Positions 1 to 52,071 of a DNA stretch of 60,000 nucleotides are shown one piece after another; position 1 is the first letter of the stretch, and each line of letters opens with the position of its first letter. The notes beneath the pieces are model-generated. The model saw only the letters and a program-made list of their open reading frames with translations, was not told the DNA's origin and searched no databases. Both the position numbers and the translations under genes were made by a program. Source of the stretch: Laetmonice hystrix (Eukaryota); NCBI GenBank assembly GCA_965235115.1, contig OZ249436.1, forward strand, positions 18,974,001-19,034,000. The letters run 5' to 3'.

Positions 1-432
1 TTGTGTCATGCTTACATGGTAATAAATTGAAAAAAACTCAAAAAATGTCAAAGTTTACTACTGAAATTTTACGGTCCCCCTCCCCCTTAAGATGTGTTTT
101 GAGTCAGCAACCTGGAATTGTATATATGATTCAAAAAACGAATCGGGCCCAACAACTGTTGTGTAGTGTGCATGTGTCAGTCTTTAATCAGGAATCGGGA
201 AAAATAGCAACTCAACTGTCGCGTCTTAGCAAGTCGTGTAATGTGCACCGGGCATGAGTGTGCCTCTGTCTGTAAAGATATACAATGACAATGTTTTCTG
301 TTTTTCACTTTCAGACTCAGAGTTGATGCACATTTGGTGAGAGTCTTGAACACCTCAAGACCAGTCTGATCAAGGCAGAAAGAGAGAATATCTGCTTCTC
401 AAGTATTAACTAAGTCTCAACAACATATCAAA

Positions 433-3400
433 ATGGGAGGCCACCAAGTGTCCCATGTACGTCGACTGCTGCACTGGGGCCCAATCCTGGCCCTGACTGT
501 GATAACTGTGATATCAATCTGTGGCATCACGTGTTCTCTACAGTGGTGGCCCGTCACTACCATTGGAGGATTCCTTAACATGACGGTCTATCTCGTCTGG
601 AATGTGACGACGCTGTACAACTTCTTCAATGCTGCATTTGTTGGCCCTGGACATGTACCTGAAGGATGGAAACCTGTGAGTCTATGGCTAGATTTCTCTT
701 CATGGTGTAAATGATTGATGGGCTGATATCTGGACTGTTTGGAGGTCTGGCTGATAATCAAGATAAATAATTAATTGATGTCCTTATATCTGGACTTTTT
801 TTGGTCTGGTCGATAATCACGATAAATAATTGATTAAGGTCATGTGTGGCACCTATCAAATCTCCCACCATATCTCGCCATGGTAACCAATGTATCCAAC
901 CCAAACCCATTACATATCAATATAATGCATTTCAATAAAAAGAACAAGTAGTTTTGATTTAAAAAATGTTAAGATATCTATATGTCACTGCGGTTACTTT
1001 TTTGTTTATGAAATGATACATTCTCTGAGCCATATACTCGACAGAATTGCAGCTTGATTTTTTTCAAGCCTAGGTTTATGGCCAATAATACCTGCATGGT
1101 AATACCAGCATGGTAACTTATGGATATTTTTCCCTTTTTAAAATCAGAGACACATACATAATATTGATATGTAATGGGGTTGACTTAGTGTAGCACATGA
1201 CCTTAATGTCCTTATATCTGGACTTTTTTTGGTATGGTCAATAATGAAGGTAAATAATTGATTGATGTCCCAGGGGTCGAAAAATCCAACTTTTGGCCAC
1301 TAGCCCAGAGTCATAGTGGGCAAAAAGGGCATGTCTGTCGGACTAGTTTAATGCATTTGCTTGGCTCTTGGGGGTAGTCCGACCTGAAGAAACGCTCTAG
1401 TCCCGGGCCTCGGACTAGATTCTTTGACCCCTGCGTCCTGATATCTGGACTTTTTGTCGGTCTGTTCAACAACCGAGACAAATTTCCGGAAAATTATCCT
1501 CATAAACCTTAGTTAAGGCTCGGAGATCCTTTTTACAACTTGAGTGTTTCATATTGCTGTTTTACATATTTCCTTGCAGGAAGATCAAGAAGATTTGCAG
1601 CGTGTCCAATATTGCATGTATTGCAAAGGGTACAAGGCTCCAAGGTCACACCACTGTAGGAAATGTAACAGGTAACAAGCCTAATTTGAGATTGTTTGTT
1701 GTCCCAAGTTACATAATTACTGTCCTAGTTTATAGATTAGGTGACAATAAAGTTGCTGATCGTCCCTGCCTGACCATTAAAAAAGGCCCTCAGACAGATT
1801 TTAAAAAAAGTTGTATTTGAAAAATATGTGCCAAAAATGCAAGAAACATGCACCAGAATGACTTTATCAGTTTATGAGCATGGTTTTGGACTGCCAAAAA
1901 ATTATTATAAAATTTCAAAAGCAAGTTATACTGCAACAGTTGTTGAGCCGTGAAGGCCAATGTTGAAGCAAAGAAGATTATGGGCAGGGAATTTGTAATG
2001 AAGGACATGGAGTGTTGAAGCCTCATGGAATTTGTAATGTAATGAGGGACGTGGAGTGTTGAAGCCTCATGGAATTTGTAATGAGGGACGTGGAATGTTG
2101 AAGCCTCGTGGAAATTGTAATGAGGGACGTGGAGTGTTGAAGCTTCATGGAATTTGTCATGAGGGACGTGGAGTGTTGAAGCCTCATGGAATTTGTCATG
2201 AGGGACGTGGATTGTTGAAGCCTCATGGAATTTGTAATGAAGGACATGGAGTGTTGAAGACCCATAGAATTTGTATTGAGGGACGTGGAGTGTTGAAGCT
2301 TCATGGAATTTGTCATGAGGGACGTGGATTGTTGAAGCCTCATGGAATTTGTAATGAAGGACATGGAGTGTTGAAGACCCATAGAATTTGTAATGAGGGA
2401 CGTGGAGTGTTGAAGCCTCATGGAATTTGTAATGAGGGACGTGGAGTGTTGACGACCCATAGAATTTGTATTGAGGGACGTGGAGTGTTGAAGCCTCATC
2501 GTAACATGTGATTGATTTGTTTCAGTTGTGTTATGAAGATGGATCACCACTGTCCATGGATCAACAACTGCGTTGGACACTTTAACCACGCTTATTTCAC
2601 TTACTTTTTATTCTATGCACCTTGTGGCTGTATTCATTCAGTTTGTGTACTTCTACCTGCAATGTATCGGGCTCTTAATAGGGTAAGTAACAAGCTAAAG
2701 TCTAAACCAAAAACATGATGTAGATAAACATGGTTTTCTGGTTTTGATGATGTCAGTAAGATTTTAACTGGTATTATTAGAATGTAGGTACAGTGTTGCC
2801 GACCATCCGTATTTTATACGGAAACCTCCGTATTTTCAGCTCACCCTTTCAACTTATTCAAGAGGTCCGTTTTCCGTATTTTCCGAAAAACCTCAGTAAT
2901 TACAGAGAAATTGTCGGTATGGGTCCGTATATTTCAAACCTCTAAGAATGTCAGTACTGTAAGTCAAAGGACCAATCAGAACATGGAACACAAGTTGGCC
3001 AGTTTTGACATGGTTATGAACAGTTGGCCAACCAGCCAGTCTACTTGAGTTGAGGGCATTTCAGCAAACTTGCGAACGTGTGTTACCGCGCGCAAATGGG
3101 TCGCATGTCGTTCGCGAATGGGTCAGCATTTTTTTGGTTCCCCAGGTTGGCAACACTGTAGGTAGGCCTATGTTACCTCCATCAGGTTTTGGCAAAAACT
3201 TTGAGAAACAAGTCTCACTGCCTTTAAAAATCTGTTTAAGACTTTGAAAAAGTGATTGGTGTTGGGTTTGTGGGCACTTAAGTTTCAAACTACCATTGGT
3301 TATTTGAGGTACATGTATGTTATATAACTGTGCAATGTAATGTGAGATATATTTTATTTTCAGCATTATTACATACTCTATGGGACTGGGGATGAGCCTA

Positions 3401-5463
3401 TTGTTCAGCTAGGGATCAACCATTTTATATGTTGTATGTTTGCTGTCGGACTGGCAGTCGGCGTCATCATCGCTGTTGGTGGCCTTCTCTTTATCCAGGT
3501 AAAATCGACAGTCAAAGTTTCACACAATGAAACAGTAATACATGTGTAATTAACATTTTCCAAGTATTGATAGTATTTTTATTCCCCAAAAGTTAAATGC
3601 ATGTAGTTATTATTTTATTTATAATGACTTAACAAGCGACCAAAAATGCTTTGCAGGTCAGAGCAATACTGAAAAATGAGAGTGGAATCGAGTCATGGAT
3701 TATTGAAAAAGTAAGTGGAAAGCAAGGAAAAGATGAAGTCTCATATGATTTTAAATGAAAGCATATAAATAAATTTAAGTGACACCATATAGTTAGCAGA
3801 ACTTTGCCCCCCCCTCGAAGAATATTAATGTTATTTGCCACCCCGTGCTTCTGTTGCCTTCTTAAGTTCACATATAATTTTCATTAAATTTGCTCCCCCC
3901 CCCAAAAAAATTTCCTGCAGAGGCCATGTGTATAGTGTGTTGTCAAACCTATTGTTTGTTCCTGCCAGATTGCATACATATGACAGGCTTAAAATTACAT
4001 TATTAATCCACAGGCCGAATATCGACTCAGAGAGGAGGATGAACCCGAGTTTGTGTTCCCATACAACCATGGCCGCTGGGAGAATTGGCAACACGTGTTC
4101 AGTTTCAAACCGAACCCTAAGATGGATGGGATCTGGTGGCCAGTGGTTGAGGGCTGTGACCAGTTTACTCTCACGGTAACACCCAGTCCATCATTGTGGA
4201 TAGTACTTACATTACCTCTCAATTAAACTATGTATATATGTACTATGTGTGAAATGTTTGGGTCATGCAAAGTCATCCTTTACACAAATCTTGAGATGGG
4301 ACGAAAAGATAGAAAATATTGGGACATACATACATGACATACATACGTACATACAGACTTTCAGTCAGGGATCGGCTATAGATCTGAGCAATCACTGATA
4401 ACTTGAGACTGACAGTCATGTAGTGTGCATACTCAACTGTTGCATCTTAGCAAGTCGTGTAGTGTGCACCGGGCATTAGCTGCTTCACATGGAACTGACT
4501 TTTAGTTTGTGTTTCTGCCACTAGGAGGAACAGATCAAACAAAAGAAGGAGAAGAAAGACAGAAGTGTGGTGTACAAAATTAAAGAGAGTTACAGTGGGG
4601 CCATATTTCCCTGTACCAAAGGTTGCAGGGTTTGTTGTTGTCCTCCCTGCTCAGACGAATCACGCATTCCACTGGTGGTTGGTGACCACGTTCTTGTCTC
4701 ACGATGGAAAAAGTAAGGTTTTTTTTATTGTGCACCTCCTTAAAAGTAATGTGTGTTCTCCTCCTCCCATATTTTTATGATATTCTGAAATTAGGTGAAA
4801 GTTATAATATTTGTAATAGTTTGGTTAATGGAACCTCTTAATGTCATGACCCAAAGCAGTGAGTTTATTTTTAGAAATAAAATGTTCAACTGTGAACCTT
4901 GGTTTTTACAGGCATTGGTTATATGGTGACAAGATGGGCATAGAGAAAAGTCAAGAAGGTGAGATAAAATGCAATATTTTGTGTTTTTGTTGAGTTATTT
5001 CAGGTAACGTGAGGATAAACTGGCAAAACGTTCTAACATCAGGATTCTTAAAACATATTCATATGATATGTAACTTATATAATAGGTAGAAATATTTGTC
5101 AATACTTTCTGCATTACCTTCACTGTAAGAAAATTTGATTTCATTTCTTTGAAACTTTCTCTATCATTTCATGAAAACTTCATTTCATTATCCTCAAAAT
5201 TCCCGTTTTGAAATAAATGAGATTATAACATGACATTTTTTTATGTGTCATCTGTGTGGTCATTCGTGCACCTTTTAATTTTTCTCTCATTCCATGGTCT
5301 GTTTTTATAGTTTCCTTCCAAATCCAGATATAACTGACGTCATGTTTCAGGAGACTTGAGGGTGCGCGGATGGTTCCCGCGGCGATGTGCTATCGAGGTG
5401 ATGGAGAACGGTCACACTCTGCAGCAGTCAGAAAAAGATGAAGAAGACAAGAAACAAGAGTGA
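433..5463 (+). CDS. ZDHHC6: DHHC palmitoyltransferase, ZDHHC6-like, 9 coding exons, 396 aa
   Basis: Exons 433-675, 1580-1671, 2526-2682, 3364-3498, 3657-3710, 4014-4175, 4525-4712, 4912-4958, 5351-5463 have GT-AG boundaries and join in frame (1191 nt). Protein has RRLLHWGP near the N-terminus, the Cys-rich CxxCxxxKAPRSHHCRKC..CVMKMDHHCPWINNCVG domain, a C-terminal SH3-like region (CCCPPCSDE, WLYGDK, RGWFPRRC) and a KKxx-type end (DKKQE). Confidence 0.93.
1271..1433. mobile_element. MITE with CAGGGGTC termini
   Basis: TIRs caggggtcgaaaaatc / gattctttgacccctg; flanks tgtcc / cgtcc (near-perfect 5-bp TSD); interrupts a unit of a ~60-bp intronic repeat. Confidence 0.7.
1987..2500. repeat. 39-bp minisatellite in a ZDHHC6 intron
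   Basis: About 13 copies of ggaatttgtaatgagggacgtggagtgttgaagcctcat. Confidence 0.95.
2791..3158. mobile_element. MITE with CAGTGTTGCC termini and 6-bp TSD
   Basis: TIRs cagtgttgccgacc / ggttggcaacactg, flanked on both sides by taggta. Confidence 0.8.
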
Positions 5464-9619: not shown

Positions 9620-12600
9620 TCACTGAAGGATTCCTTCCATGGCAATGAACTCTTGCAGCTTGGAAGGCAGGGGAAGTTGTTTGACCTTGTCAAATGGTTT
9701 CCTCCCTATACAGGTCCTGATTATCCCTCGACATTCAGTGAGAAGGTTGCGGGGTCTGCTGAGAATACCCAGGAAGAACTCAGCATATTGAATGAGCAGT
9801 CTGGGCTGAAGTCCAGCATCGGCAGCATAGCGGGTGCGGAACATGATGTCCTTCAAAGTTCGGAGCTGTTGGTATGGCATGCGCGGGGTCGCCTCCAGAA
9901 TCTCCTTGATAAGAAGGAAGTTATCTTTTTGGACGGCAGTGTAGAGTGGTTCAAGCTCCAGATGAGGGTGTGAGTCGGTGTAGGTCATGCAGCAGCGCCC
10001 TCTAGGGATGCCATGGTGTGTGGAGGGGTTGGCGCCCCAGTAGATGAGCAGGCGCACCAGACTCACGTTGTCCGCACTCACGGCGAGTCGTAACGCACTC
10101 TCCCACTGCATAGTTAGCTAGAAATATCAAATTAAACAAGATTCTTACCTTGCTAGACCGACTGAGTCTTATGTGAGTGTGTATAGAGCCACATGTTACA
10201 TATTTTCCTACATTCATTTAAATCTCTGAATACCATTCAGGCAGATAGCCATGCTGATGTTTGTATTTAACATCATCCTGTTTATGTTATGAAGTCAGAA
10301 GTACACAGTACCTGGTTGACCTCACTACCAGCCTGGAGTAAAACCTTCGCCACACTGACGTATCCATGCCTGGCCGCAGCATGAAGCGGAAAGTTCACCA
10401 CCCCTTGGTTGACATCGATACCAGGCTGGGACAACAAAAGTTGGATCATCTCGTCACTACCCTTGTCACAGGCAGCACAGAGTGGACTTGTTCCGTCACT
10501 GTTGGTTTGGTTCACATCACAGCCTGTCAGTCAGACAGAACACAGAATTTAATAAGGGAAAGTTTCCCCAGATTGAACGACATCACAGCCTGTCAGTCAA
10601 AGACAGAACACAGAATTTACTAAGGGAAAGTTTCCCCAGATTGAAAGACATCACAGCCTGTCAGTCAAAGACAGAACACAGAATTTAATAAGGGAAAGTT
10701 TCCCCAGATTGAACGACATCACAGCCTGTCAGTCAAAGACAGAACATGTAGAACTTAATAAGGGAAAGTTTCCCTAGATTGAAAGACATCACAGCCTGTC
10801 AGTCAAAGACAGAACACAGAATTTAATAAGGGAAAGTTTCCCCAGATTGAAAGACATCACAGCCTGTCAGTCAAAGACAGAACACAGAATTTACTAAGGG
10901 AAAGTTTCCCCAGATTGAACGACATCACAGCCTCTCAGTCAAAGACAGAACATGTAGAATTTAATAAGGGAAAGTTTCCCCAGATTGAAAGACATCACAG
11001 CCTGTCAGTCAAAGACAGAACATGTAGAATTTAATAAGGGAAAGTTTCCCCAGATTGAAAGACATCACAGCCTGTCAGTCAAAGACAGAACATGTAGAAT
11101 TTTCAATGACCAGTGACGTTCTCAGACAGTAGGGCTATGATGAGGGTCCTTCATGGTGCGATAGTATGGAACGAGATGCCTGGAGCATAAATAATTATGG
11201 TGGCATATTAATGTGCAAGGTATCGAGTTCCATACCTTCCTGGCATGAAGGAGCCGAATATCATTAAGTGTTTATGTGCTTCAATTACCAGTATTTCTAA
11301 TTTAAGGAAGACAAGAAATGTATATCCATCCTCTGATGGCCTAATTTATAATACATGTTTCCATGCCCCAAAACATGTATTAAAAGGTCTCCATGCTTGG
11401 CATCCCCCTGAATGACACTGCGCATAATTATAGTACCAACTTTCAGGGTGAACAATCACAGGTAAAAATTTACAGTGTTACAGTGATACACGGTAGTAGT
11501 GAATGTTTTCTCACTACAACCCTGCGAGGACAAAGTGATTGCCTTGCCTGCAGAGATGAGGAATCGGACTGTTTCTGCACAGTCATGGACTACTGCAGCA
11601 AATAGAGGTGACTGATGATGAGTTTTCTCACAGACATCAACTTCGCTGCCAGCGTCCACGAGTTGACGAATGATCTGAAACAATGTCAATTCATCTGATC
11701 AATTCGTCCAAACATCCAATCAGAAACCACCCACCACACAAAGTACTCAGAAGTTGGGGTTAAAATAGTCTAGCTCATCCTACCCCTGTTTATAAACATT
11801 AGGCCTCAAAATAAGGTTGATCCCTGAGGCTACACTATCTTTCACTAGCCCCAAAACCTTACCCGAGCCCCACAACTTACACGAGCCTCAATCCTTACAC
11901 TAGCCCCAAACCTTACCCGAGCCCCAAACCTTTACCCAAACCTTTACCTGAACCCCAAATCTTTACCTGAGCCACAAACCTTACACGAGCCCCAAACCTT
12001 ACCCGAGCCCCAAATCTTTACCCGAGCCCCAAACCTTACACTAGCCCCAAACCTTACACTAGTCCCAAACCTTTATCAAAGAAAATAAGGTACAATACCT
12101 GCATATTAGCCCTGAGATCTATTGCCGTGTAAAGGGGCAACTCATTTCTGTTATTCGCAGCATTCACATCAGCACCTGAAAAACATAAAGAAAGCCGACA
12201 ATGTACATAATGTGCATAATAAGATGACTCACTGAAGTGGTGTATGATCTGGTGAATCGAAGTTAAAGTGAATTCTAAAATCAACATTCGTAAAACAGAT
12301 GTATGATTGATACTTGGAGTCCTTAACTATACCGTAAATTGTTTGCACTAATTACTTCATTTTGCATATAAATTTCCTTTTGAAATTTGCAAGCAAAATC
12401 AAATATTTTCCATTGAATCGAAAAAGACAATTACCCATTTTAAAATGACGATATTTGTACCAAATTTAAGGGCCTGATCCACTAAGGTGATTTCCCTTGC
12501 GATGGCCATGTGATTTGTGATTTAATGGAGGAATTTCACTCTAAAATCTTTCCTGGCTGGCCTTCCCTGTTACAGGAAATGGGTACTGGGCCATTCCAGG

Positions 12601-39116: not shown

Positions 39117-39569
39117 TTAGCTTTTGGGGAAGATAGTGCACAAGGATACGACAATGATTGCTAGGTACATGCAGAAGAATAGCCGATCGAGAACCAGCGC
39201 TACTATTCTCCACTCCATCATCACCTTGGCCACTGCGTCTTTTTCCTGTAGCCGCGTCATAAACGACCGCAGCGCCCTCTTGATCTCGCGCACCTCGGAC
39301 TCCATGGCGACGTTATGTAAAGGTGACCTATCAGGGGTTTGGTAACGCGCCTGTACCGGACTGTCACTGCGCTGGGTCATGGACGGTGGTTCCCACTTAT
39401 TGTATGGTAGTATCGGCGACTTTATTTTGCGCTGTTTCTCTTTGCTGTTTTTCCTCCGTGACGTGCAGTCGGTGATGATCGTGTGATGTTCCGCGGTTCG
39501 TCGCTCGGACTCTTTTTTGGGAAAATCTCCGCGCATGAATACCCAGCGGGCGAGGCCGTCTATTAACAC
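39117..39569 (-). CDS. nAChR block A terminal exon (intracellular loop, MA helix, M4)
   Basis: cacacag|GTG TTA ATA GAC; ends [32 protein letters not shown]. Confidence 0.9.
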   Translation of the reverse strand: MLIDGLARWVFMRGDFPKKESERRTAEHHTIITDCTSRRKNSKEKQRKIKSPILPYNKWEPPSMTQRSDSPVQARYQTPDRSPLHNVAMESEVREIKRALRSFMTRLQEKDAVAKVMMEWRIVALVLDRLFFCMYLAIIVVSLCTIFPKS

Positions 39570-42500
39570 CTGTGTGCAGAAAAGCCACATATGATATATA
39601 CGTCTCAACCCTCATCTACCATAGGCGTCGGAACCGGAGTGGTGTTAGGGGAGGGGGTACCCCCAGAAAATATCTCTACTATCACAGAAAAGGTCAAATC
39701 TTCCCGGGAAAATGGCCAAACGGCCGTATAGCCCCCCTTTAATGAAAATAATGATTTCCCATCCGTTCTACAGGGATTCTGACGCCCATGCTTAGACTAG
39801 AGGCATATATTCATAACTGCCATGCAGCTACTTCTAATGCGTGCATTCACGAGTGACCAGTTTAGTTTTAAGTTCCATATCACACCATTCACCAAGTGCA
39901 GCAGTCAGACTCGGGGGTCCTCAGGAACGGAACCACGCGAGACCTGGGCCCCGTTTTTAGTTCGTCATTTTACCAATTTTAAGACTGGAATTTTAAGACT
40001 GACTTGTGTTATGGTCTCTCATTATCTGACTTCATTTGAAGGACCAATCAGAAGCTCTAAAACAAGAGTTCAGCCTTAAGATTTGAATCTTAAGACTGAG
40101 TTTGCAAACTAAAAACCAGGGCCGGGGATTAATCTTTTTGTTTTTCCCACGATTGGAGCATATCTTGTACATAGACAAACATACATTGCGCAGTTTTTTA
40201 AATGTTTGGATTACTTCTTCAAAAAGTCTTGCCTTTAGATTCTCAGCTTAACTTAGCTTGCCCTCTTAGAACTCATGATACAAATGTGCTGGGGTGAGCC
40301 GAGTTGGAAGAAGCTAAGTTGAGCTGAGCCGCTGACCTAGGTCCTTGTAACAAAATAAATCTACATCCTCAGGATATTCTCGATAGGAAAGTGAACACAA
40401 AATTTCAAAAATAAAAAATGTCCCATATGAATCACCCTTCGTGGGATACCAAATCTACAATTGTTCTTCGAATACTACTCAATGGCCTCACAACCACACA
40501 CGATGTTCGATGACCTACTTATGTACCTCCCCGTGCGACATGCAGGAGTGTTTGAACCAAAAACCGCCACCAAAACCTCGATCTGAGAGAGACACTGCCG
40601 ACACCGGCACCTCCTGCGTCTCACCACCGACTGATGGAGGCAGAATCTCCGTACAAGCAATTAACCCGCGCGGAATCCAGTCAATCACTTGGCAAGTAAA
40701 ACAATGGTCGACAATAAAAAAAACGAATTCCGTTCGCTGGAGGGCGCCGTTTCCGTGGTATTGTCAAGGTACGTTTTTACCCAATGTAATTTTTCGATCA
40801 CAGGAATGTGATTAATGTATTGTAACGGTTCGCATCGAGCCACAGATAACAATGTCACAATGGAAATAAGAAATACATTAATCGACAGATATGGAATTGA
40901 AGGCAGGAAGCAGGAAACACGACAATATTCTCAATAACAATCTAATGCCTTCCGTGAGAGAAGAACAAAAGCAAAGGACGGTGATGGCGGAAAGTGACAT
41001 TGCCATTCAGAATACTTCATTTTCCTAATGACAAAAGCTGTGGAGAAGTTATCAAGAAACATTGGTCCCAGTCGGAAGCAGTGTATACACGTCAGATCAG
41101 GAGGCCACGAAGTTTATTGGCTGGAAGCGACATTAACAGTGACCTAGAACTCGACTTTCCGTTCAAGCGTTAGCCGAGCAGGCCCCACATTCCCAGAGAT
41201 AGAGGATCTTTGCCAGGGTGGAAGGCAGAGGACATCGCCGTGCAGATTTCCATTTGCTGTATCACCAGCGCAGAAGAAGCAGCCGCGGGGTTAGAACAAC
41301 CACGTCACCAAGGGTGTTATGACAGGAAGTCAGCACAGGGGGCAGAGATGCGGGGGGAACGCGTCTGCACACGTAGGACGCCAGCCAAGTCAAAGACAAA
41401 ATCACACCCTACCCTTTTCATCCACCAAGGTACCCGATTTCGTCTGTCACCTCGGATATAAATGTTGATGACTATTACGGCGAGGAAAGTAGAAAGGGTG
41501 ATGAGCATCATAATGATACAAAAATAGGCTCCTGAAAACAAAACAGAAACACACCAACTATGTACCATACCCATGGTTACAGTATACGAAACTAACGGTC
41601 CGCACATCATAGGACTGCGATCAACAGCTGCGTAGCGAGGGTTGGTGGTGTCCCAAGTCAAGGGTCGAGAATGAAAATCCCTTTAGTATGGTGGCCCAGA
41701 AGTGCAAAGTGTTGTACTTCACAAACAATTTAAAATTCCTTCGCTTTACACTGAAATTCCTTCGCTTCACACTCCAATTCCTTCGTTTCACATTGAAATT
41801 CCTTGTCCTTTCAGACAATTCCTTGGCTTCACAGTAGAATACCTGGCCTTGACGCTGACATTTCTGTTCTTCACAGGCAATTCGCTGCCTTCTCAGACAG
41901 TTCCTTCGCTGCGAAGGCAAGGAATTAACTGAGAAGGCCAGAAATTTCAGTGTGAAGGCCAGGAATTCCACTGTGAAGGCCAGGAATTCCACTGTGAAGC
42001 GACGTAATTGTGTGTGAAGACAAGAAATTTCTTTGTGAACCACAGAAATTGTCTGTGAAGTACAGCAGTTTGTACTTCTGGGCCACTGTACATTCGAGAA
42101 TGAGCGCGCCCCCTGAATAAAATGAGTAGAGAGACTGTCTTTTTATCAAAAATATATCGGTAAAACAAAATGGTGGCCAGGGTACGGGTCCCCTTAATCC
42201 CTTGCTACGCCACTGTCAACTAGAGCGCTGGTCTTGACACAAAATGACGACAGTCTGGACTTCAACCCAGGATCATGGTATTTTTGTAACGGGAGTTGTG
42301 GGATTGTAAGGTACCGTTTGGAACAAGGTAATTGTGTGACGTCATTTAATGTCGCGACCAAGAGCTCAGCCCGCTCTCAGTATCCAGGTGGTCGTGCGGT
42401 CTATGGCACCATACCCTTTTCATCAAAAATGGCACTCTAGTCCTCTTGTCACCCCGGAAGTATAAGTTGATCACAATGACGGACAGGAAGGTAGATAGAG

Positions 42501-45500
42501 TGATGAGCACCATATTGAGGCCAAAGTAGGCGCCTGAAATGATAACACGAGCAGAAAAAAACATGATCTTTGTTCGATATCAATATTCAACTCGTTTTTG
42601 TCTCATCTGTTGGTAAGGGTAGATGCGCGCGCAGAAAGCCAGTACAATGTATTACATAGGCCTAATATATCCGGAGAGTCCGGCATGGTACTACCCATCG
42701 GCCCCACGAGAGGTCAAATTTGAAACATTAAAGGAAAAAACAAAACGGAAAATAATAATAATAATTGAGTAATGATACACTCTGTTGGATAGTATGATCT
42801 CTGTTGCAGTTTGGATAGTACGATCTTTGTAGTTTACAAGAATTGTTTGACAATGATAATAGGTATTTTGGAAGAGGACTTACTCCCTACCAACGTTTTG
42901 GGCACGGCCAATTTACATAAGAGTTTTGAACTTCAAAGTTGCAATTCACGTCTACTACATTTTGTACTTTATATCATTAATACAATTTTATATATTTTAA
43001 GATAACACTTGGCGACATCTTTGACGACACTGCCATTTCCCTGCAAGACTCAAGAATAAGTTTATATCCACACCCATAAGTACTCCTCAAATACTTGGAA
43101 ATGAAAAACATAATTCGACATAATTATTAGTGCAGTACTTAGTTAAGGAACTCCCAGTTACTGAAGAAGTACAAGACCAACCTTTATTTAGCATCTTTAG
43201 TCTACGATATGGACTAGGACAACGTAGCATTAGATAGACGTACATAACTTACCTATAAAAGGGACAGATGGTAACGTAGATAACTTACCTATAAGGGAGA
43301 CAGATGATAACGTAGAAGGGGACAGATGATAACATAGATAACTTACCTATAAGGGGGACAGATGGTAACGTAGAAGGGGACAGATGATAACGTAGATAAC
43401 TTACCTATAAGGGGGACCGATGATAACGTAGATAACTTACCTATAAGGGGGACAGATGATAACGTAGATAACTTACCTATAAGGGGGACAGATGATAACG
43501 TAGAAGGGGATAGATGATAACGTAGATAACTTACCTATAAGGGAGACAGATGATAACGTAGAAGGGGACAGATGATAACATAGATAACTTACCTATAAGG
43601 GGGACAGATGGTAACGTAGAAGGGGACAGATGATAACGTAGATCACTTACCTATAAGGGGGACCGATGATAACGTAGATAACTTACCTATAAGGGGGACC
43701 GATGATAACGTAGATAACTTACCTATAAGGGGGACCGATGATAACGTAGATAACTTACCTATAAGGGGGACCGATAATAACGTAGATAACTTACCTATAA
43801 GGGGGACAGATGATAACGTAGAAGGGGACAGATGATAACGTAGATCACTTACCTATAAGGGGATAGATGATAACGTAGATCACTTACCTATAAGGGGACA
43901 GATGATAACGTAGATAACTTACCTATAAGGAGGACCAATGATAACGTAGATAACTTACTTATAAAGAGATAGATGATAACGTAGAGAACTTACCTATAAG
44001 GGGGACAGATGATAACGTAGATAACTTACCTATAAGGGGGACAGATGAGGATGCGGGAGGCGTAGAATCAGATAGGATCCGCAGTAGCAAGAAAAATGCT
44101 ACAAATATGTTCATTCCTATGGAGAGATAACAAGACAACAAATACGATTTAAAAGGGAACTTCTGATTTATCCTCGATGATGAAAAGATGAAACTGACTA
44201 ATATATATGGAAATGCAGTGGGGATCCAGGATTTTGCACTCTCCGGACAGAGATCGTTCACTTCATTCAATCTCTGCCACACATTGGGTACATACTCTAG
44301 TATACAGTGACTGTTTGCGGGGCGAAAACCATCACTGTAAGATACGCCCTCTTCACGGACCCGAGATGGGTCTAGATCATTGCGCAGAGCGTTGTGCGGT
44401 GTATCCCGCTGCACGGACAACATGCATGATTCTGAGTGTGTTTATGACATTTTCTCAATTACCCTTCTGATGACATTCGAGTAATTATTCCATTACCGAT
44501 ATCGATGTCCCCATCCATTACTGTGTATAGCTAAAGGCACCCGTGACGGGCAGCCAACCAGCACGGACTGTTTGAACACCCGGATTATATTTAAGCTCAT
44601 TCATGAATACATTCGGTGATCTACTCTGACACTTCACAGAGGATATAATTATTTCGGCGCAGAAATTCGACATCGTGGATTTTTTTTTATTCCCGCAGGA
44701 TGATGAACGCTAGAGAAACGCTGAGCGAACGCCGGGTCGGCACGCATCAAAGAGAATGCGTGGACGAGGGACACTCACCAAGGATCATCTTGGCGGACGA
44801 CTCGGGAGGCAGCCAGAAGATGACGAGAGTGATGGACGAAAGCAGGACACAGGGAAGGATCAGAATGTAACTGTAGAAGGCACCCATACGTTTGACCTTG
44901 AGCGTGAAGGTCAGATCTATGTAGGGTTCCTCGCAGCAGGGGTATCGCTTTTCGTTGCGGATAGCTGGGTGTTCGACCAGAACCCACTCATTACTCTCGA
45001 TGTAATCATTGACGTCTACTTCGTCCAAGTTGTCGTAGAATACAAGATCAAGTTTATGGCCGTCGTAAGTCCAGGACCCGAACTTCATGTGACAGGTCTG
45101 CTCATCAAACGGGAAGTGAGTGATGTCGATGGCACAGGTACTCTTGTATATCCCCATGGGGATCCACAGGACCTGCCCATCACGGCTGACGACGGCCAGG
45201 GCTTCTCTCTGCTCCGTCAGGCGGACGTCGGCACTGATACACAGCAAACGGTGATGTCAGCACGGATACACAGCAAACAATGACGTCGGCACTGATACAC
45301 AGCAAACGGTGATGTCAGCACGGATACACAGCAAACAATGACGTGGGCACTGATACACAGCAAACGGTGATGTCAGCACGGATACACAGCAAACAATGAC
45401 GTTGGAACTGATATACAGCAAAGAATGGTGCCATTACTGACCCACGGAGCAAACAATGACGTCAGTACTGACACACAGCGTTAACAATGACGTCAGCACG

Positions 45501-45897
45501 GACACACAGCAAACGATTACGTCAGCATTGAACACAAATAATAATGTTACAATGACGTCAGCACGACTTCCAAATCAAACATCCAAGACAACCTAAAAAA
45601 AAACGATTGAAAACTTGTAGAAACATTAGTTCCTTGGATGGTAGAAAGATGTTCAATTATCGGCCAAATCACCACCCAAAACATTCATCTGAATTAACTG
45701 CAGTCCAGTGGACGATAAACTCGGACAAAGTGTTTGTAATTCGTCTGATGAACATATTTGTGCGCCTGGAAGGCGCGGCTGACTTACTAGTTATACAGGA
45801 CGATGTCGGGGGTCCAAATCTTCTCAGACGGCACTCTCACGTGGTCCACCCCACCGAAATCTTCCGGGTTCCATCTGAGGAGAATGTCGTTCCACGT
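39117..45897 (-). CDS. Nicotinic acetylcholine receptor alpha subunit, anion-selective type, block A (no own exons 1-3 found)
   Basis: Exons 45897-45788 ([14 protein letters not shown]), 45233-44779 (Cys loop, [10 protein letters not shown]1, PESSAK), M2 44116-44030, M3 42533-42415 or 41531-41413, last exon 39569-39117. Internal exon sizes (110, 455, 87, 119 nt) match block B and there are no stops. Confidence 0.9.
39946..40123. mobile_element. Harbinger-like MITE
   Basis: ggccccgtttttagtt / aactaaaaaccagggcc with internal ttaagact motifs. Confidence 0.55.
41413..41531 (-). CDS. nAChR block A alternative M3 exon b
   Basis: tttcag|GA GCC TAT..AAA AGG|gtaggg; encodes [40 protein letters not shown], 119 nt. 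Confidence 0.86.
41689..42088. mobile_element. TA-target MITE between the two M3 exons
   Basis: ta|tggtggcccagaagtgcaaa..gtacttcaca / tgtgaagtac..tttgtacttctgggccactg|ta; internal 21-bp repeats in both orientations. Confidence 0.8.
42415..42533 (-). CDS. nAChR block A alternative M3 exon a
   Basis: tttcag|GC GCC TAC..AAA AGG|gtatgg; encodes [40 protein letters not shown], 119 nt. Confidence 0.87.
43245..44048. repeat. 36-bp (with 22-bp sub-unit) minisatellite containing the block A M2 splice donor
   Basis: About 19 copies of aacttacctataagggggacagatgataacgtagat. Confidence 0.95.
44030..44116 (-). CDS. nAChR block A M2 exon
   Basis: ccatag|GA ATG AAC..CTT ATA G|gtaagt; encodes [30 protein letters not shown]. 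Confidence 0.88.
44779..45233 (-). CDS. nAChR block A Cys-loop/loop C/M1 exon
   Basis: Within ORF 44747-45247; acceptor tatcag|T GCC GAC, donor CTT G|gtgagt. Confidence 0.92.
45224..45565. repeat. 29/58-bp minisatellite containing a block A splice acceptor
   Basis: Units gacgtcggcactgatacacagcaaac.., degenerating away from the exon. Confidence 0.88.
45788..45897 (-). CDS. nAChR block A 110-nt ligand-binding-domain exon
   Basis: ttgtag|ACG TGG AAC GAC..AAC TA|gtaagt; 4 amino-acid differences in 36 versus the block B exon, with many synonymous changes. Confidence 0.88.
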
Positions 45898-47354
45898 CTA
45901 CAAATATACACACCACAGGTTTCCATCCGGGTTCTTTGGATTCACACCCATTCACACTGGGCCCCTGGCAGGATCCACTTAGTGGGTTGGTGGGGCGGGG
46001 GATACTTCTACCAGAGGACCATCCTCAGCTCAATTTTGTAATCAAAGTTTATTGTAACTTGGCCCTGGCTGTTGCTGGGAGGTGAAACTCCATTGCAAGT
46101 TGCGGAGAGGTCCTTTTCTTGGGCATCTAGCCGAACTTGAATAAAACCCTGACATCGCGTCGAGTTATGGTTGTAATATTATTTTATTCATTATTATGAA
46201 TTCATCAAGTTATACATATTAGGCTCTTGTTTTACTCGTATTCAATTGCATGTCATAGTTTGATGATGATCAATATTGATATGATTCATGATTGATCAAT
46301 ATTGATATGTTTCACTCAGTATTTTTGGGGGTAATGTACATGTAGGCCTAGGTAGCAAGACTAGTAAATTGTACTTTGTTTTCCATGTTTATTCAAGTGT
46401 GGGAGTGTATAGCATGCGTAAATAAAACTGTTGACCGCGCGGAGCGAGAAAATTTTTTGGTCTTTTAATTTTTTTAGCAGTTTCGGGCAGATTTGTTTAT
46501 AAATCTACTGGCTGTCAACAATCTATTTTTTTCACACACATTGCTAAACAAAGTATTTTTTTCACAAACATCTGGGAGCAAACAATTTTTTTGGGTCAAC
46601 TTGGCAAACAAACTATTTTTTCTACAAAAAAAAACCATACCCCCCAGCTATTAAATGGTCTGCCCCTAATCATAATCGGACTTCATTCAAATTTTACATA
46701 AAGATTCATGCTTCTTTGTAAAATTATAAAAAATATATCAAGAATTTATTGCAATAACTTTAAAGACTGTGAATACGGTCTGCATCTAATGTTAATTGAC
46801 TCCTGTTGAACCCGAAAGAATGCGGTACTTTCCACAGAATTGTGGTGTCACCTATATCTTTCGAAACACAAAGATTAATTTTGAGGTGGCAGAAAATCAA
46901 ATAACTCGATCTGGAGTCCTGGGCCGGTTTTACTAAAGGTCGATAATAACGCCGTCGATAATTTAACATAGAAGTGAATGGTTGCTAGGTCGTTATTTTA
47001 GACGTTAAATGTTAAATTATCGACGTCGTTATTTTCGACTCTTGATGACGGCAGGGCGTCGCTTGATGAGTCTGTTTTTTTTGGTCCCTCGCTGGTCGGA
47101 CCTTCCGTCGTTCGTTATGAAACATCCCCCAATCACAGCTGCCTCTAACATCTTTAGGCCAATAGTGACTCGAGTGCCGAATTCCAAAACATATATCACT
47201 GATACCTTACAATGTCTTATTTTAAATTAAATCAACAAGAAGACAATTTTTACTCAAATATTTACTCCTCTTTATTGAGCAATGACTTACAGCGGTAATA
47301 TATAAAGGTACATACAAAAGCCGGGCGCCCAGGTACACTCTGATATAGGTCTTC

Positions 47355-47900
47355 TGGCCTGGTACAGGTACTTTGTCCGGCCTGGTACAAGTACTTTGTC
47401 CGGCCTGGTACAAGTACTTTGTCCGGCCTGGTACAGGTACTTTGCCTGGCTGGGTACAGGTATTTTGCCTGGCCGGGTACTGGTACTTTCTCCGCTCTCG
47501 TACCGGAACTTCCGGGTACGCATGCCTTCAGCAGTCAGTGACGCATTCTGGGAGTGGGTTGAGGATTTGCCCACCAGCATCGACATGGTTGACTGGTCAT
47601 TGGCCGGCATCTATGACATGGTTGACTGTTCATTGCCTAGTAACCATGCTATGGTTGACTGGGTATTGGCCGGCAGCCATAACATGGTTGACTGTTCATT
47701 ACCCAGTAACCATGCTATGGTTGACTGGTCATTGGCCGGCAGCCATGACATGGTTGACTGGTCATTGCCCGGTGGCCATGACATGGTTGACTGGTCATTG
47801 CCCGGTGGCCATGACATGGTTGACTGGTCATTGCCCAGTGGCTACGCCATGGTTGACTGTCATTGTCCTGTAACCATGCCATGGTTGACTGGCCATTGCA
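47355..47900. repeat. Two adjacent minisatellites (23 bp and 33 bp)
   Basis: cctggtacaagtactttgtccgg about 6 times (47355-47490); catgacatggttgactggtcattgcccggtggc about 10 times (47580-47900). Confidence 0.9.
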
Positions 47901-50900
47901 TCGACTGATCAATACAAATGAGCTTTACACCCACAAATCTATTGCTGGTGCTCAGGTGATATGTATCCTAGAATTATCAGTTTTAGGAACCCATCCTTGT
48001 GGTTAACATCGACGGTTCATGTTAGAACGAGAAATCTACAGGTTTGAATGTTGGCAGGGGGACATTCCTTTTACACAGGATGCGATACAAATGACACCAT
48101 GTATTTATAAGCCCACCTTGCACGGTATTCATGAGTCATCAATAGCAAACCTAAAACGCAATAAAGACAGGCCCAATGTCATCGCAATTGCTCATTACTG
48201 CCAAAGATAGTACACACATGTAGTGTACTAACGGGGAGGGAGGTTCCGGATGGTTAAACCAACAACCCAAGAACCTTGGCCTACGCTGGTACATGGGCTT
48301 CCAGGATAGCAAACTGATCCGCTGAGCAATGCTTTGATTTACGTTGCAATGCATTGATCCAATGAACAATGTTTTGATCCACATAGCAATGCCACTTATC
48401 AATGCCACAGATGAGGATAGAGGAACCTCTATTTCAGCCTTTTTTTCTTCCTTTTTGTAGACATGAATTATCATGAATTAGCTTCAAATGTATAGGCCTC
48501 CACTAATCTTTCTTTATACATCAAGTCCAATGATCATCCTGTAATCTGTTCTGTATGAGTGTGGTATATAATTATTAGGGAAGACCAAATTATTCACGTA
48601 ATGAAAAACTGCGAGGGTTACATATCCCAACTGTACGGGCATCTTTGGACGATATACACACATTACAAACCCGCTAGGGACTATTTTTGTGTATCTCCCA
48701 ATGGTGTGCTTACAATTCCAAGGCTAGAAATTGGTCTAACAGAAAGGTTGGAATAGAAGAGGTAGGCCTACGCGCCAATTTGGACAACATCACGACATAG
48801 ATTTGCATCGCAGCAAGGGATCCTCTATTTTAATTAAAGAATCTGTTTGCAGTGTTATGACTCTTGGGTTGTATTTCTACAAAATGTGTGTTAATCGGCA
48901 CTGGTCATCTGTGAGGAGGGATACCGGATCGGGTGCGCATCACAGACTTTAAATATCGATGATTGTCAGCCAATCGGACGTCGACCCAAGATTGTGACGT
49001 CAGCCAGGCCCGACACTCGCCCACTGTGACGTCACACCGTTATCGTTCGCTTGACATGCATATATCAGGATCACATAGCATACATTAGGCCTATATCTAG
49101 TTATTACGCATGAGTTATATTGTTTCCGTCGTCTCTAATGTTACTTGTCTCACGTGATGATATCGGTTTCTTCGGGGGCACTATTAGTTGAGCCTAATTG
49201 GCTCACCTTTGAGTGACGTAACAATGGTGCATTTGACAAAGTAAAATCTCAGCTGTGTGGCTCTTCAAGTTCGGTCTGGAGGAGGGTGGCACTCCGGTTG
49301 TTGTGGCGGTCAGACCACAGCGACATCTGTCGTATAAACCCAGAGTTGTGTCACCGATGTGTTGACGGGGGAGGGGGTCCGAGCCGAACCCCACCTTGTC
49401 ACGTGATTACAAAGACGCCGAAGAAGTACCAGATCAAAGGATCACGACTTCTAAAAGACGACTATAGAAACAGGTGCGCCCGGAAGGAGAGAGATGTGCC
49501 CCGAAGGCTGGTAGCTTCAGCAGCAGCTGCTTTGTTAGTACGGTTGATACGAATAGTGCCCCTATGTGACATTGATAACCTCTCTCTATCTAAGGATGGG
49601 CCTGCTAATGATGGTCACGTGACCAGGCGCACAGGTGGGACGTAAGGTGAGAGACGCCAGTAAGGAGACGCTCCACCGGACAATGGGTGTGGGTCACAGA
49701 ACATCTCGAGGGAAGAGAACAGTGGGCGATTATGACCTCATTTGAAGGAGAGACGAACTGAAGACAAGGCGGAGGCCTATTGCTATTACTCGCACGTTCT
49801 GATTTTAAAACATACAGTTACCAAAGCCATGTTTCCACTGCTCGGGGAACAAACACTCAAATCTGGCATATTCTGGCCAGCTTTATAACCGATATATACA
49901 ATTTCTGGCGGTCATCACTAGTAATACTATTGGCAAATCCGATCTCCCAAACTAGGCCTATAGCTAATGTTTGAGAGTATAGGTTTGAATGGAATCGTTT
50001 AGGTTTTATGGAAGTCAGTTTTGATCTAGCGACGTTTATATTTGTTGTGCAGGAATGATCTGAAAAGGAGAGTTCACATATCAAAGCGGGCCGACCATGT
50101 GGACGCGCTTCAATACAAACTATCTTAACTATACGCCTCGCTTTGAACACGGCATACGGGTGAGGCCAGCCAATCAGATCACGTTTTACTAGTGGCATCT
50201 GACTGGCTGCGTAGTTTTAACGTTTTACGAAGCGACCCACAATAAACTTCACTCCTTGCTTCCGCTGTAGATCTATGCTCACTGCAGAGGTGTTGCCATG
50301 GTAACCAGTCCAAATGACTGGTCGTCTTGGTGACTGGTTCTTATGTACAGGTTGGCGACGACTGGAGGTGCAGTAGGCAATGTCTCAACGATCGGTCATC
50401 ATCATACTGCATAATAATAATATCAGAACTAACCAATTTTGACGATTAGTGTCGTGGCGCCTTAATGACGGCGACACGTGACCTAACATTCGGTAGGGTA
50501 TATAAAAAGGGGATGCTCACCCATACTGGCTGATTGAGATACGTACCAAACGTCGTTAGGTTTGTCAACGAATAATGCAACAAAGTTGACGTCCATTACT
50601 TGACCAACTCTACGACAGAACTCGGTGTCTGAACATCACCTCTACAGCAACAATAAAAACAGGCATGTAGACCTAGCAGGTTACAACATCTCGGCTCCGA
50701 ACTGTGAATACCTTTACCCGCTCTGTGAACTTGTATGTCAATGTTTCTGTATAAATTGAACTTCATAACATGTAGGCAATTGAATTAATCAACACATCAT
50801 CCTTATATACCATGACACGACCTTACGGCCACACCCTATACCCACTAGTAGATTGCCTTGTCTATTTGAAGTCGGATACACCTTCTTTTACTATGGAAAT

Positions 50901-52071
50901 ATAATTCCTATATACCTTATCCTCTAGCTACTTGCTTACCTGGATAACGTACTAAAAGGTAATTTGATGGCGATCTCTTAACGCTATATGAATATTTGTT
51001 CTTTATTACTACCCACCTCTGTCTGTCTCCTCGAACAGTTACAACAAGATAAAGCAAGTGTCATTTCTCACATCCACTATCGGCCACACACATTCATTCC
51101 AACATAATATCGGATTGACATCAATGCAAATCAACGAAACTGGCATTTCTTACGGTCTAATGTGATTACCTCCATATCAACAAATGTGATTTAGAATACT
51201 GGGATACAAATCTTAAACTACGACATTTTTATGACCGTGCCGACACTGATATAGCCTCCTCACTGTATTATATATATTGGACACCGTTTACATTAGCTGT
51301 ACATCCCGAACTATATCAAAGGAATCACTGGTCAGTATAATGTCTGTTTGTCAAACAACATCAAGCACGGACGCCCATGAAAGTAGAAAAAAATCAAAAT
51401 TCATAAACCCCGTACCGTAACGGTCAGACTTGCTGGCCACTTGTTATCCTGCCGCACATTTCTAATATAAAACGTGTATCTCCACGGGTCCAGGCCGATG
51501 CTTCAACGCACCGCACGTGGGGATGGGGAGGCCCATGACTAGAATATCCCTAATGACTAGGATGAATAAAGTCCTCTTGGCAAGCCAGGTAGGCGTAGTT
51601 GTATGCAAGTTGTACATAATCCGTTGTACATTGCGTCACCGTATTGTGACGTCATCGCACCACGTCGTGCATTATCTTGGATGGAAAACCACGTTATGGA
51701 TTTCCCTGCTCACGGCTTTATGGGTAACGAAAAGCCTGGTCTCGTTAAATCTCGCCATATCACAGACATCTGGCGTGAACATAGTGGACGTCCCAAATAG
51801 GTAACAAGGTCAAGGCAACGTAACCTGACTACGTAACAGAGTATCAACTGCCAAGATAATTTGGAACAGGGACTGCTACGTCGCCGTCACATCCGGGTAT
51901 CTCTCTCTCAACTGCTATCCTCGACGTAACTGAAACCTTGGACGAGATGTGAGAGTAGACCAACCAGTAGCACCGATTCTGGGAAGGCAGTTTTCAAAAC
52001 AAAATCTACACTTAACATATTCACACAAACAGATGACGGACACGAACTGGTCTTTTTTTTGCATTTGAATT

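What the first reader, a model, noticed from the sequence alone, without database searches (positions are those of the whole stretch)
43245..44048. Minisatellite builds an array of ~19 AG|GTAAGT sites behind the M2 exon
Seen: the repeat unit is the end of the M2 exon plus the start of the intron. Each copy reads tcatctgtcccccttatag|gtaagt on the coding strand: a pyrimidine tract and AG directly followed by a consensus donor, the form of a recursive splice site. The 36-nt unit keeps frame, so the second donor (43994) would add 12 residues ([12 protein letters not shown]) to the M2-M3 gating loop. The third unit is mutated and has an in-frame TAA, making all later donors non-productive. The array lies just upstream of the M3 choice.
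Basis: partly seen in the sequence, partly recalled or inferred. Interest (0 to 1): 0.7.

Follow-up and report, generated by a model that had tools for sequence, protein, structure and literature searches.

The report
Splice-donor "mirage" minisatellite in worm receptor
A 36-base piece spanning the end of one exon of a worm acetylcholine-receptor gene has been copied in tandem into the next intron, repeating the splice signal 18 more times; this is a known kind of repeat, and the extra signals are most likely ignored.

Summary
The array is real. Minus strand 44048-43245 holds 19 GTAAGT donors (18 AG|GT, one AA|GT), the first being the true M2 donor of an annelid-like nicotinic receptor gene. 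Donor 2 would add 12 residues in frame; direct use of donors 3-19 includes a TAA. It is a junction-spanning minisatellite, a known class: amphioxus 'mirages', human F7, IFI6, CBS (PMC3087553, PMC1557585), where the first donor dominates. Two more such arrays, on acceptors, lie in this window, and the scan has noted the class before in this genome and in others. Recursive splicing is poorly supported: the acceptor look comes from the exon's own codons, the intron is 1.5-2.5 kb, and 0 of 19 other M2 donors carry a repeat. The M3a/M3b pair is far older than the array. Against my reading: the donors are near-consensus and the units score like real acceptors, so some use of donor 2 is plausible. 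Splicing itself was not observed. Ordinary; low interest.

The parts
43245..44048 (-). Junction-spanning minisatellite: 36-nt basic unit (19 nt of exon end + 17 nt of intron start), with 35-nt and donor-less 22-nt variants; 19 donor motifs including the true one
44030..44116 (-). M2 exon of nicotinic receptor paralog B (87 nt, phase 1-1); its last 19 nt belong to unit 1; true donor GT at 44029
43994..44029 (-). Unit 2: in-frame 36-nt extension if donor 2 (GT at 43993) is used; would add 12 residues to the M2-M3 loop
   Evidence: sequence only; use not shown
43959..43993 (-). Unit 3: 35 nt, in-frame TAA at 43961-43959 directly before an AA|GTAAGT site
43249..43642 (-). Higher-order duplication inside the array: the block starting at 43642 recurs 246 nt on at 43396 (139 of 147 identical over the stretch compared, which runs into the terminal unit)
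42415..42533 (-). M3a exon (119 nt), candidate mutually exclusive exon
41413..41531 (-). M3b exon (119 nt), candidate mutually exclusive exon; both together would shift the frame
44779..45233 (-). Upstream exon (ligand-binding domain end and M1) of the same gene
45224..45536 (-). Second junction-spanning minisatellite of the same gene: 29-nt unit that reiterates the acceptor of exon 45233; near the exon, units with AG alternate with units with CG
39117..39569 (-). Last coding exon (cytoplasmic loop, M4)

Best explanation
A young, mostly neutral junction-spanning minisatellite (a 'mirage'). Shown: the unit is the last 19 nt of the M2 exon plus the first 17 nt of the intron, amplified to about 25 units with point variants, 1-nt and 14-nt deletion variants and a 246-nt higher-order duplication. 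Inferred: it began as a slippage or unequal-crossover duplication between similar short words on the two sides of the junction (TCATCT in the exon, CTATCT in the intron) and grew by ordinary minisatellite turnover. Inferred, by analogy with F7 and amphioxus: the first donor, which closes the defined 87-nt exon, takes nearly all splicing; later donors are functional decoys; rare direct use of donors 3-19 gives a premature stop, probably removed by nonsense-mediated decay; rare splicing to an internal AG regenerates the same donor and ends in the normal mRNA. The array does not decide between M3a and M3b.
For: Anatomy and turnover pattern. Three of 17 arrays in this window span a splice junction, two of them on acceptors, one in the same gene and one in an ankyrin-repeat gene, so such arrays are common here; leaving out the one that was picked, two is what chance gives (P 0.13 whole window, 0.28 inside genes). 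No repeat at 17 of 17 M2 donors in 16 related loci or at the 2 paralog M2 donors. The stretch from the M1-M2 loop to M3 has one length (36-37 residues between motifs) in 89 of 90 measurable homologs, none with +12; 30 of the 120 could not be measured. No excess folding at the exon-side edge (z 0.39) and no array arm among the 25 longest inverted repeats shown. Precedent: F7, lamin B2 and PDGF use only the first donor (PMC1557585); amphioxus mirages carry AG/GT signals and do not disturb splicing (PMC3087553; PMC3902484).
Against: The donor is near-consensus (8 of 9 letters, tied for best among 26 modelled donors), and in F7 perfect-consensus pseudo-sites did draw splicing. IFI6 and CBS arrays use two extra donors. 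The units score like real acceptors. Unit 2 is intact and in frame. The 9-nt core carries only 1 of 13 distinct substitutions (P 0.13), and all three frame-breaking 35-nt units lie in units 3-6: both hint at selection, neither is significant. Counting all three arrays, 3 of 17 exceeds random placement (expected 0.63, P 0.022; inside genes 1.04, P 0.074). First-donor dominance was shown in mammalian cells and lancelets, not in annelids. The related loci are distant, so absence there says little about close relatives.
Confidence: 0.72

Rival explanations
1. Leaky donor ladder of the IFI6/CBS type: donor 1 dominates but donor 2 is used at a measurable level, giving a subunit with 12 extra residues in the M2-M3 loop, while donors 3 and later feed nonsense-mediated decay and lower expression with array length.
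For: Donor 2 is identical to donor 1 over the 9-nt site, near-consensus and in frame. Two extra donors are used in IFI6 and CBS (PMC1557585 introduction). Changing the M2-M3 linker can silence a Cys-loop channel, though natural indels occur there (PMC11601209 passages).
Against: No homolog among 90 measurable has a +12 loop. F7, lamin B2 and PDGF arrays use only the first site. Even if real it would be a by-product in one lineage.
Confidence: 0.18
2. Recursive ladder: the intron is removed in steps, donor 1 joining an internal AG and regenerating AG|GTAAGT; now and then one 36-nt unit is left as a micro-exon.
For: 18 of 19 sites are TAG|GTAAGT with acceptor scores in the range of real acceptors. 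Nine of 18 donor-to-donor segments are open 36-mers, 8 of them behind an AG. A duplicated AG|GT can be spliced out in human cells (PMC3265369, abstract and opening text).
Against: Intron of 1.5-2.5 kb and steps of 36-777 nt, against long introns and segments over 1 kb in flies; the shortest of 26 modelled introns here is 143 nt. The motif is inherited from coding sequence. Six of 24 units have lost it. The end product would normally equal the direct product, so there is little for selection to act on.
Confidence: 0.07
3. The array steers the M3a/M3b choice, for example by holding U1 or by moving the working donor closer to M3a.
For: It lies in the intron before the two M3 exons and supplies 777 of its 1,496 nt.
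Against: M3a/M3b are old (pS 0.69, pN 0.14) and the array is young (units 94% alike). It ends 712 nt before M3a. No array arm appears among the 25 longest of 37 inverted repeats of 39500-44200; a 400-nt foldback between M3a and M3b is a nearer candidate.
Confidence: 0.03

Closest known systems
Amphioxus 'mirage' minisatellites (Adh3, globins BflGb6 and BflGb9, troponin C, PGBD5). PMC3087553: abstract passage and section 16 read; PMC3902484: passages read; the original Adh3 paper not seen.
   Same: Tandem copies of an exon-intron boundary in an invertebrate, 5' or 3' side, units of 10-160 nt, many carrying AG/GT signals, with concerted turnover inside the array and divergent edges.
   Different: Here in an annelid-like genome; 19 donor sites; every intact unit is both a near-consensus donor and a plausible acceptor; normal splicing and length polymorphism were shown there and not tested here.
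Human F7 intron 7 37-bp VNTR, and the IFI6 (6-16), CBS intron 13, lamin B2 and PDGF arrays. PMC1557585: abstract, introduction and discussion read; the other four known only from its introduction and reference list.
   Same: First monomer spans the exon-intron junction, so identical donors follow the true one (IFI6 25, CBS 15-20, here 18).
   Different: The F7 donor is weak (UGG/gugggu), this one near-consensus; this unit is a multiple of three, so donor 2 keeps the frame; 19 nt of exon are copied.
Recursive splice sites (ratchet points) of Drosophila long introns. PMC6110457: passages read.
   Same: Juxtaposed 3'/5' motif ending in AG|GT.
   Different: Those are spaced sites in long introns, conserved, and shown by intermediates; these are 36-nt-spaced copies of one exon end in a 1.5-2.5-kb intron, with no conservation found.
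Intron gain by tandem duplication of an AG|GT proto-splice site (Rogers model; ATP2A1). PMC3265369: abstract and opening text read.
   Same: Duplicating an AG|GT creates a segment that can be spliced out without changing the protein.
   Different: There the duplication lies inside coding sequence and makes a new intron; here it spans an old, conserved junction and only lengthens an existing intron.

Membership tests
Junction-spanning minisatellite ('mirage', F7 type) | Head-to-tail array of minisatellite-sized units | tested here: met
   About 800 nt, basic period 36
Junction-spanning minisatellite ('mirage', F7 type) | Terminal unit spans the authentic exon-intron boundary | tested here: met
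   19 nt overlap with the M2 exon; homology fixes the exon end at 44030
Junction-spanning minisatellite ('mirage', F7 type) | Splice signal reiterated in the adjacent intron | tested here: met
   18 further GTAAGT, 17 of them behind AG
Junction-spanning minisatellite ('mirage', F7 type) | Signs of tandem-repeat turnover (shared variants, higher-order blocks) | tested here: met
   15 unit types among 24; a block recurs 246 nt on
Junction-spanning minisatellite ('mirage', F7 type) | Copy number varies between alleles | not testable with these tools
   Only one sample is held, as contigs, and only the array's edge was laid
Junction-spanning minisatellite ('mirage', F7 type) | Mature mRNA uses mainly the authentic site | not testable with these tools
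   No transcript data were available to lay
Recursive splice site | Juxtaposed strong 3' and 5' splice motifs | tested here: met
   Acceptor score 4.7-9.2 at 18 of 19 sites against a median of 6.8 for 30 real acceptors; donor 8 of 9 consensus letters. Small home-made matrix; branch points not modelled.
Recursive splice site | Lies in a long intron and cuts it into kilobase segments | tested here: not met
   1,496 or 2,498 nt; 36-777 nt from donor 1 against PMC6110457
Recursive splice site | Site conserved across species | tested here: inconclusive
   No copy of the junction at 17 of 17 related M2 donors or 2 paralog donors, but all are distant; no close relative was available
Recursive splice site | Splicing intermediates or lariats at the site | not testable with these tools
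   Needs nascent RNA
Intron gain by tandem duplication | AG|GT duplicated inside coding sequence at a position without an intron in relatives | tested here: not met
   The intron after M2 is shared by the paralog and by 16 related loci

The most novel reading that the evidence does not exclude
The array works as a dense recursive ladder in a short intron: each AG|GTAAGT is used first as acceptor and then as donor, the unit-3 stop is skipped, and single 36-nt units are sometimes kept as micro-exons, so that repeat copy number sets how many receptor subunits carry a lengthened M2-M3 gating loop and tilts the M3a/M3b choice. That would be a repeat polymorphism tuning an ion channel's gating through splice sites it made itself.
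Probability: 0.06. Interest if true: 0.65.

Novelty: new member of a known kind. Interest (0 to 1): 0.15.

Why it matters
As it stands it matters little: one more junction-spanning minisatellite in a genome that has many. Its modest use is as a natural test of 5' splice-site choice outside chordates, because the decoys are identical, near-consensus, double as plausible acceptors, and give three distinguishable outcomes (normal, +12 residues, premature stop). If donor 2 or recursive use were shown, it would tie a repeat polymorphism to the gating loop of a Cys-loop channel.

Tried and rejected
Whole-genome base rate: no genome is held for this window, so the base rate rests on this 60-kb window alone. 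RNA evidence: no RNA holder listed (3 runs, kind unknown, one sample); this is no evidence either way. Contigs of those 3 runs laid on 43945-45220 cover the M1-M2 intron without a joint and so behave as DNA; they say nothing on splicing or on array length. Assembly artefact: rejected, since units carry ordered variants and contig depth rises on the unit. RNA structure hiding the decoys: z 0.39 on 43900-44130; the rest of the array was not folded. Array pairing with M3 flanks: none among the 25 longest of 37 inverted pairs; the other 12 were not shown. Selection on the donor core: 1 of 13 variants, P 0.13, not significant. Enrichment of junction-spanning arrays: 17 arrays kept from 69 TRF rows (merged; at least 90 nt, period 18 or more); borderline with the picked array, chance-level without it; exon models were read by eye, the ankyrin model is imperfect (444 of 676 codons open) and the 5' exons of both receptor genes were not located. 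Related loci: of 80 fetched, 16 with an intron at the M2 end were scored; spliced or intronless records, loci without M2, and 4 with a different junction were left out. A recalled human example (UPF3A VNTR) gave 0 papers and is not used. A paper search on anion-selective molluscan receptors gave listings only, so the anion-selective label is recalled, not shown. No supplements were read; Additional file 4 of PMC3087553 (mirage alignment) may bear on how close the AG/GT precedent is.

Full report
Setting. The window is animal DNA with many minisatellites (69 TRF rows; the 17 larger arrays cover 8% of it). The exon 45233-44779 encodes part of a nicotinic acetylcholine receptor subunit whose best named hits are annelid proteins (Owenia, Dimorphilus, Capitella, 71-73% identity), so I call the source annelid-like. 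Two paralogs lie in tandem on the minus strand: A (58210-52072) with two M2 exons and one M3 exon, and B (45897-39117) with one M2 exon and two M3 exons. The finding lies in B. All modelled receptor exons have AG and GT ends and fitting phases. The clade includes a protein named 'subunit type B' (P0046); that this is the anion-selective molluscan type is recalled, not tested.

The observation. The M2 exon runs 44116-44030. From 44048 to 43245 the strand is an array whose unit is the last 19 nt of the exon plus the first 17 nt of the intron. It holds 19 GTAAGT: 18 behind TAG and one behind TAA. Behind the true donor there are 24 units: 14 of 36 nt, 3 of 35 nt, 6 of 22 nt that have lost the donor, and a terminal one. 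Spliced to M3a, donor 1 gives the normal frame, donor 2 adds [12 protein letters not shown], and all 17 later donors carry the TAA of unit 3. Contigs of three runs of one sample show high summed depth on the unit, which fits a real multi-copy repeat; this is not independent of the assembly and is no copy number.

Origin. The intron sequence right behind the last donor resembles the intronic part of the unit and contains CTATCT where the unit has TCATCT, the word at which the exon part starts. I infer a first duplication between these words, followed by ordinary turnover: 15 unit types, mean identity 94% among 15 full units, and a block repeated 246 nt further on.

Is it special in this genome? 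No. Two more arrays in the window span a junction, both on the acceptor side: a 29-nt array at 45224-45536 before the upstream exon of the same gene, and a 68-nt array at 10514-11092 with 8 exact copies of the acceptor motif of an ankyrin-repeat gene. Three of 17 arrays is above random placement (expected 0.63, P 0.022; inside genes 3 of 10, expected 1.04, P 0.074), but one was picked for this property, and two is chance level (P 0.13 and 0.28). The scan's notes list 16 look-up matches in this genome, 8 shown, all of this class, and similar cases in other genomes; these are unchecked AI notes and I use them as context only.

Known class. Borensztajn et al. 2006 (PMC1557585; abstract, introduction, discussion read) describe minisatellites whose first monomer spans an exon-intron boundary in human F7, IFI6, CBS, lamin B2 and PDGF; only the first donor, or the first few, are used, and F7 pseudo-sites are functional but outcompeted by the most upstream one. 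The amphioxus globin paper (PMC3087553; section 16 read) describes 'mirages', tandem copies of 5' or 3' boundaries, many with AG/GT signals, that do not disturb splicing; PMC3902484 (passages) adds PGBD5 and troponin C. The array meets the four sequence features of this class; length polymorphism and first-donor use could not be tested.

Recursive splicing. The motif is there: on a matrix from 30 acceptors of this window, 18 of 19 sites score 4.7-9.2, against a leave-one-out median of 6.8 for the real acceptors and a 95th percentile of 5.9 for all AG. But it is a by-product of the codons for S-S-V-P-L-I-G. The true exon end scores 8.5; both paralog M2 exons also end TAG|GT after a pyrimidine-rich run, though they score lower (2.5, 1.2); 6 of 17 related M2 donors end TAG|GT and none of the 17 has a repeat. 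The intron is 1,496 or 2,498 nt, steps from donor 1 would be 36-777 nt, and the shortest of 26 modelled introns is 143 nt. Fly recursive sites are common in introns over 40 kb, with a mean segment of 9.1 kb and nearly all over 1 kb (PMC6110457, passages). Splicing to an internal AG would regenerate the same donor and end in the normal mRNA, as in the duplication experiment of PMC3265369 (abstract and opening text).

The +12 form. This is the likeliest real effect. The donor matches 8 of 9 consensus letters, tied for best among 26 donors; in F7, perfect-consensus pseudo-sites did draw some splicing, and IFI6 and CBS use two extra donors. Against it as a useful isoform: 89 of 90 measurable homologs have the same spacing from the M1-M2 loop to M3, and the one exception is a gene model that joins two M2 exons (30 of 120 not measurable). 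Replacing the M2-M3 linker can silence a Cys-loop channel, while natural indels do occur in that linker (PMC11601209, passages), so the effect of 12 extra residues is open.

The M3 choice. M3a and M3b are both intact, 119 nt, 72% identical in protein, with pS 0.69 and pN 0.14: an old duplication under purifying selection, with mutual exclusion inferred from the frame shift that joint inclusion would cause. The array is much younger and ends 712 nt upstream. It shows no unusual folding at its exon-side edge and no arm among the 25 longest inverted repeats of the region. A foldback element between M3a and M3b (41686-42091) is closer to the choice.

Results against my reading. [quoted passage not shown] None of this shows function.

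Verdict. A real, cleanly built junction-spanning minisatellite, a new member of a known kind. Most likely the first donor is used and the rest are decoys (0.72); minor use of donor 2 is the main alternative (0.18); a working recursive ladder (0.07) or control of the M3 choice (0.03) is unlikely. Interest 0.15. I make no claim that this class is unreported in annelids: nine paper searches were run and none was aimed at that question.

Noticed in passing
window 54895-54809 and 54589-54503 (minus); L001 9453-9542 and 9896-9985: Paralog A has two intact 87-nt M2 (pore-lining) exons (pS 0.65, pN 0.05). L001 has the same pair, a Dimorphilus gene model (P0004) joins two M2 exons, and oyster isoforms P0078/P0079 differ in M2. 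In paralog A, L001 and P0004 the first copy ends I-P-x-I and the second V-P-L-I. Likely a conserved alternative-M2 choice in this spiralian receptor clade; probably of more interest than the array. A comparable choice in insect alpha6 exon 8 is recalled and noted in e1-7592256.
   Followed up: partly
window 44116-44030 and 44800-44779 (minus): Paralog B has an arginine late in M2 (LLRIL) and lacks the proline of the PPESPAK motif (PPESSAK). P0012 (Paralvinella) shares both traits and P0019 has lysine at that place, so this looks like a conserved subtype with altered pore properties.
   Followed up: partly
window 42533-42415 and 41531-41413 (minus): Two old, intact M3 exons of 119 nt; candidate mutually exclusive pair. 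No second M3 was seen in the related loci, most of which are short.
   Followed up: partly
window 41686-42091: About 400-nt foldback element between M3a and M3b: 46-nt terminal arms 87% complementary, inverted 21-nt minisatellites inside, TA at both ends; looks like a Tc1/mariner-type MITE (label recalled). As RNA it could shorten the effective distance between the two M3 exons.
   Followed up: partly
window 45224-45536 (minus): 29-nt array reiterating the acceptor of exon 45233; near the exon, AG units alternate with CG units, so intact decoys lie 58 and 116 nt upstream.
   Followed up: partly
window 10514-11092 (minus): 68-nt array reiterating the acceptor of an ankyrin-repeat gene exon (10523); all 7 upstream exact copies would bring an in-frame stop.
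   Followed up: partly
window 44236-44296: A 60-nt stretch in the M1-M2 intron draws very high contig depth (51,000-112,000) with many loose ends: the end of a high-copy interspersed repeat.
   Followed up: no
window 315-5463 (plus) and 16160-9620 (minus): A DHHC-type palmitoyltransferase-like gene and an ankyrin-repeat gene with a SOCS-box-like end (both labels from recalled motifs, no family search run); one ankyrin exon appears to end in a GC donor at 11548.
   Followed up: no
window 46000-52000: The 5' exons of paralog B (signal peptide to about residue 84) were not found by tblastn with four homologs; they may be short and diverged, or shared with paralog A.
   Followed up: no
window 44064: All three runs show another letter at a synonymous position of the M2 exon, and two show further differences in the intron: the sample is probably heterozygous here.
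   Followed up: no
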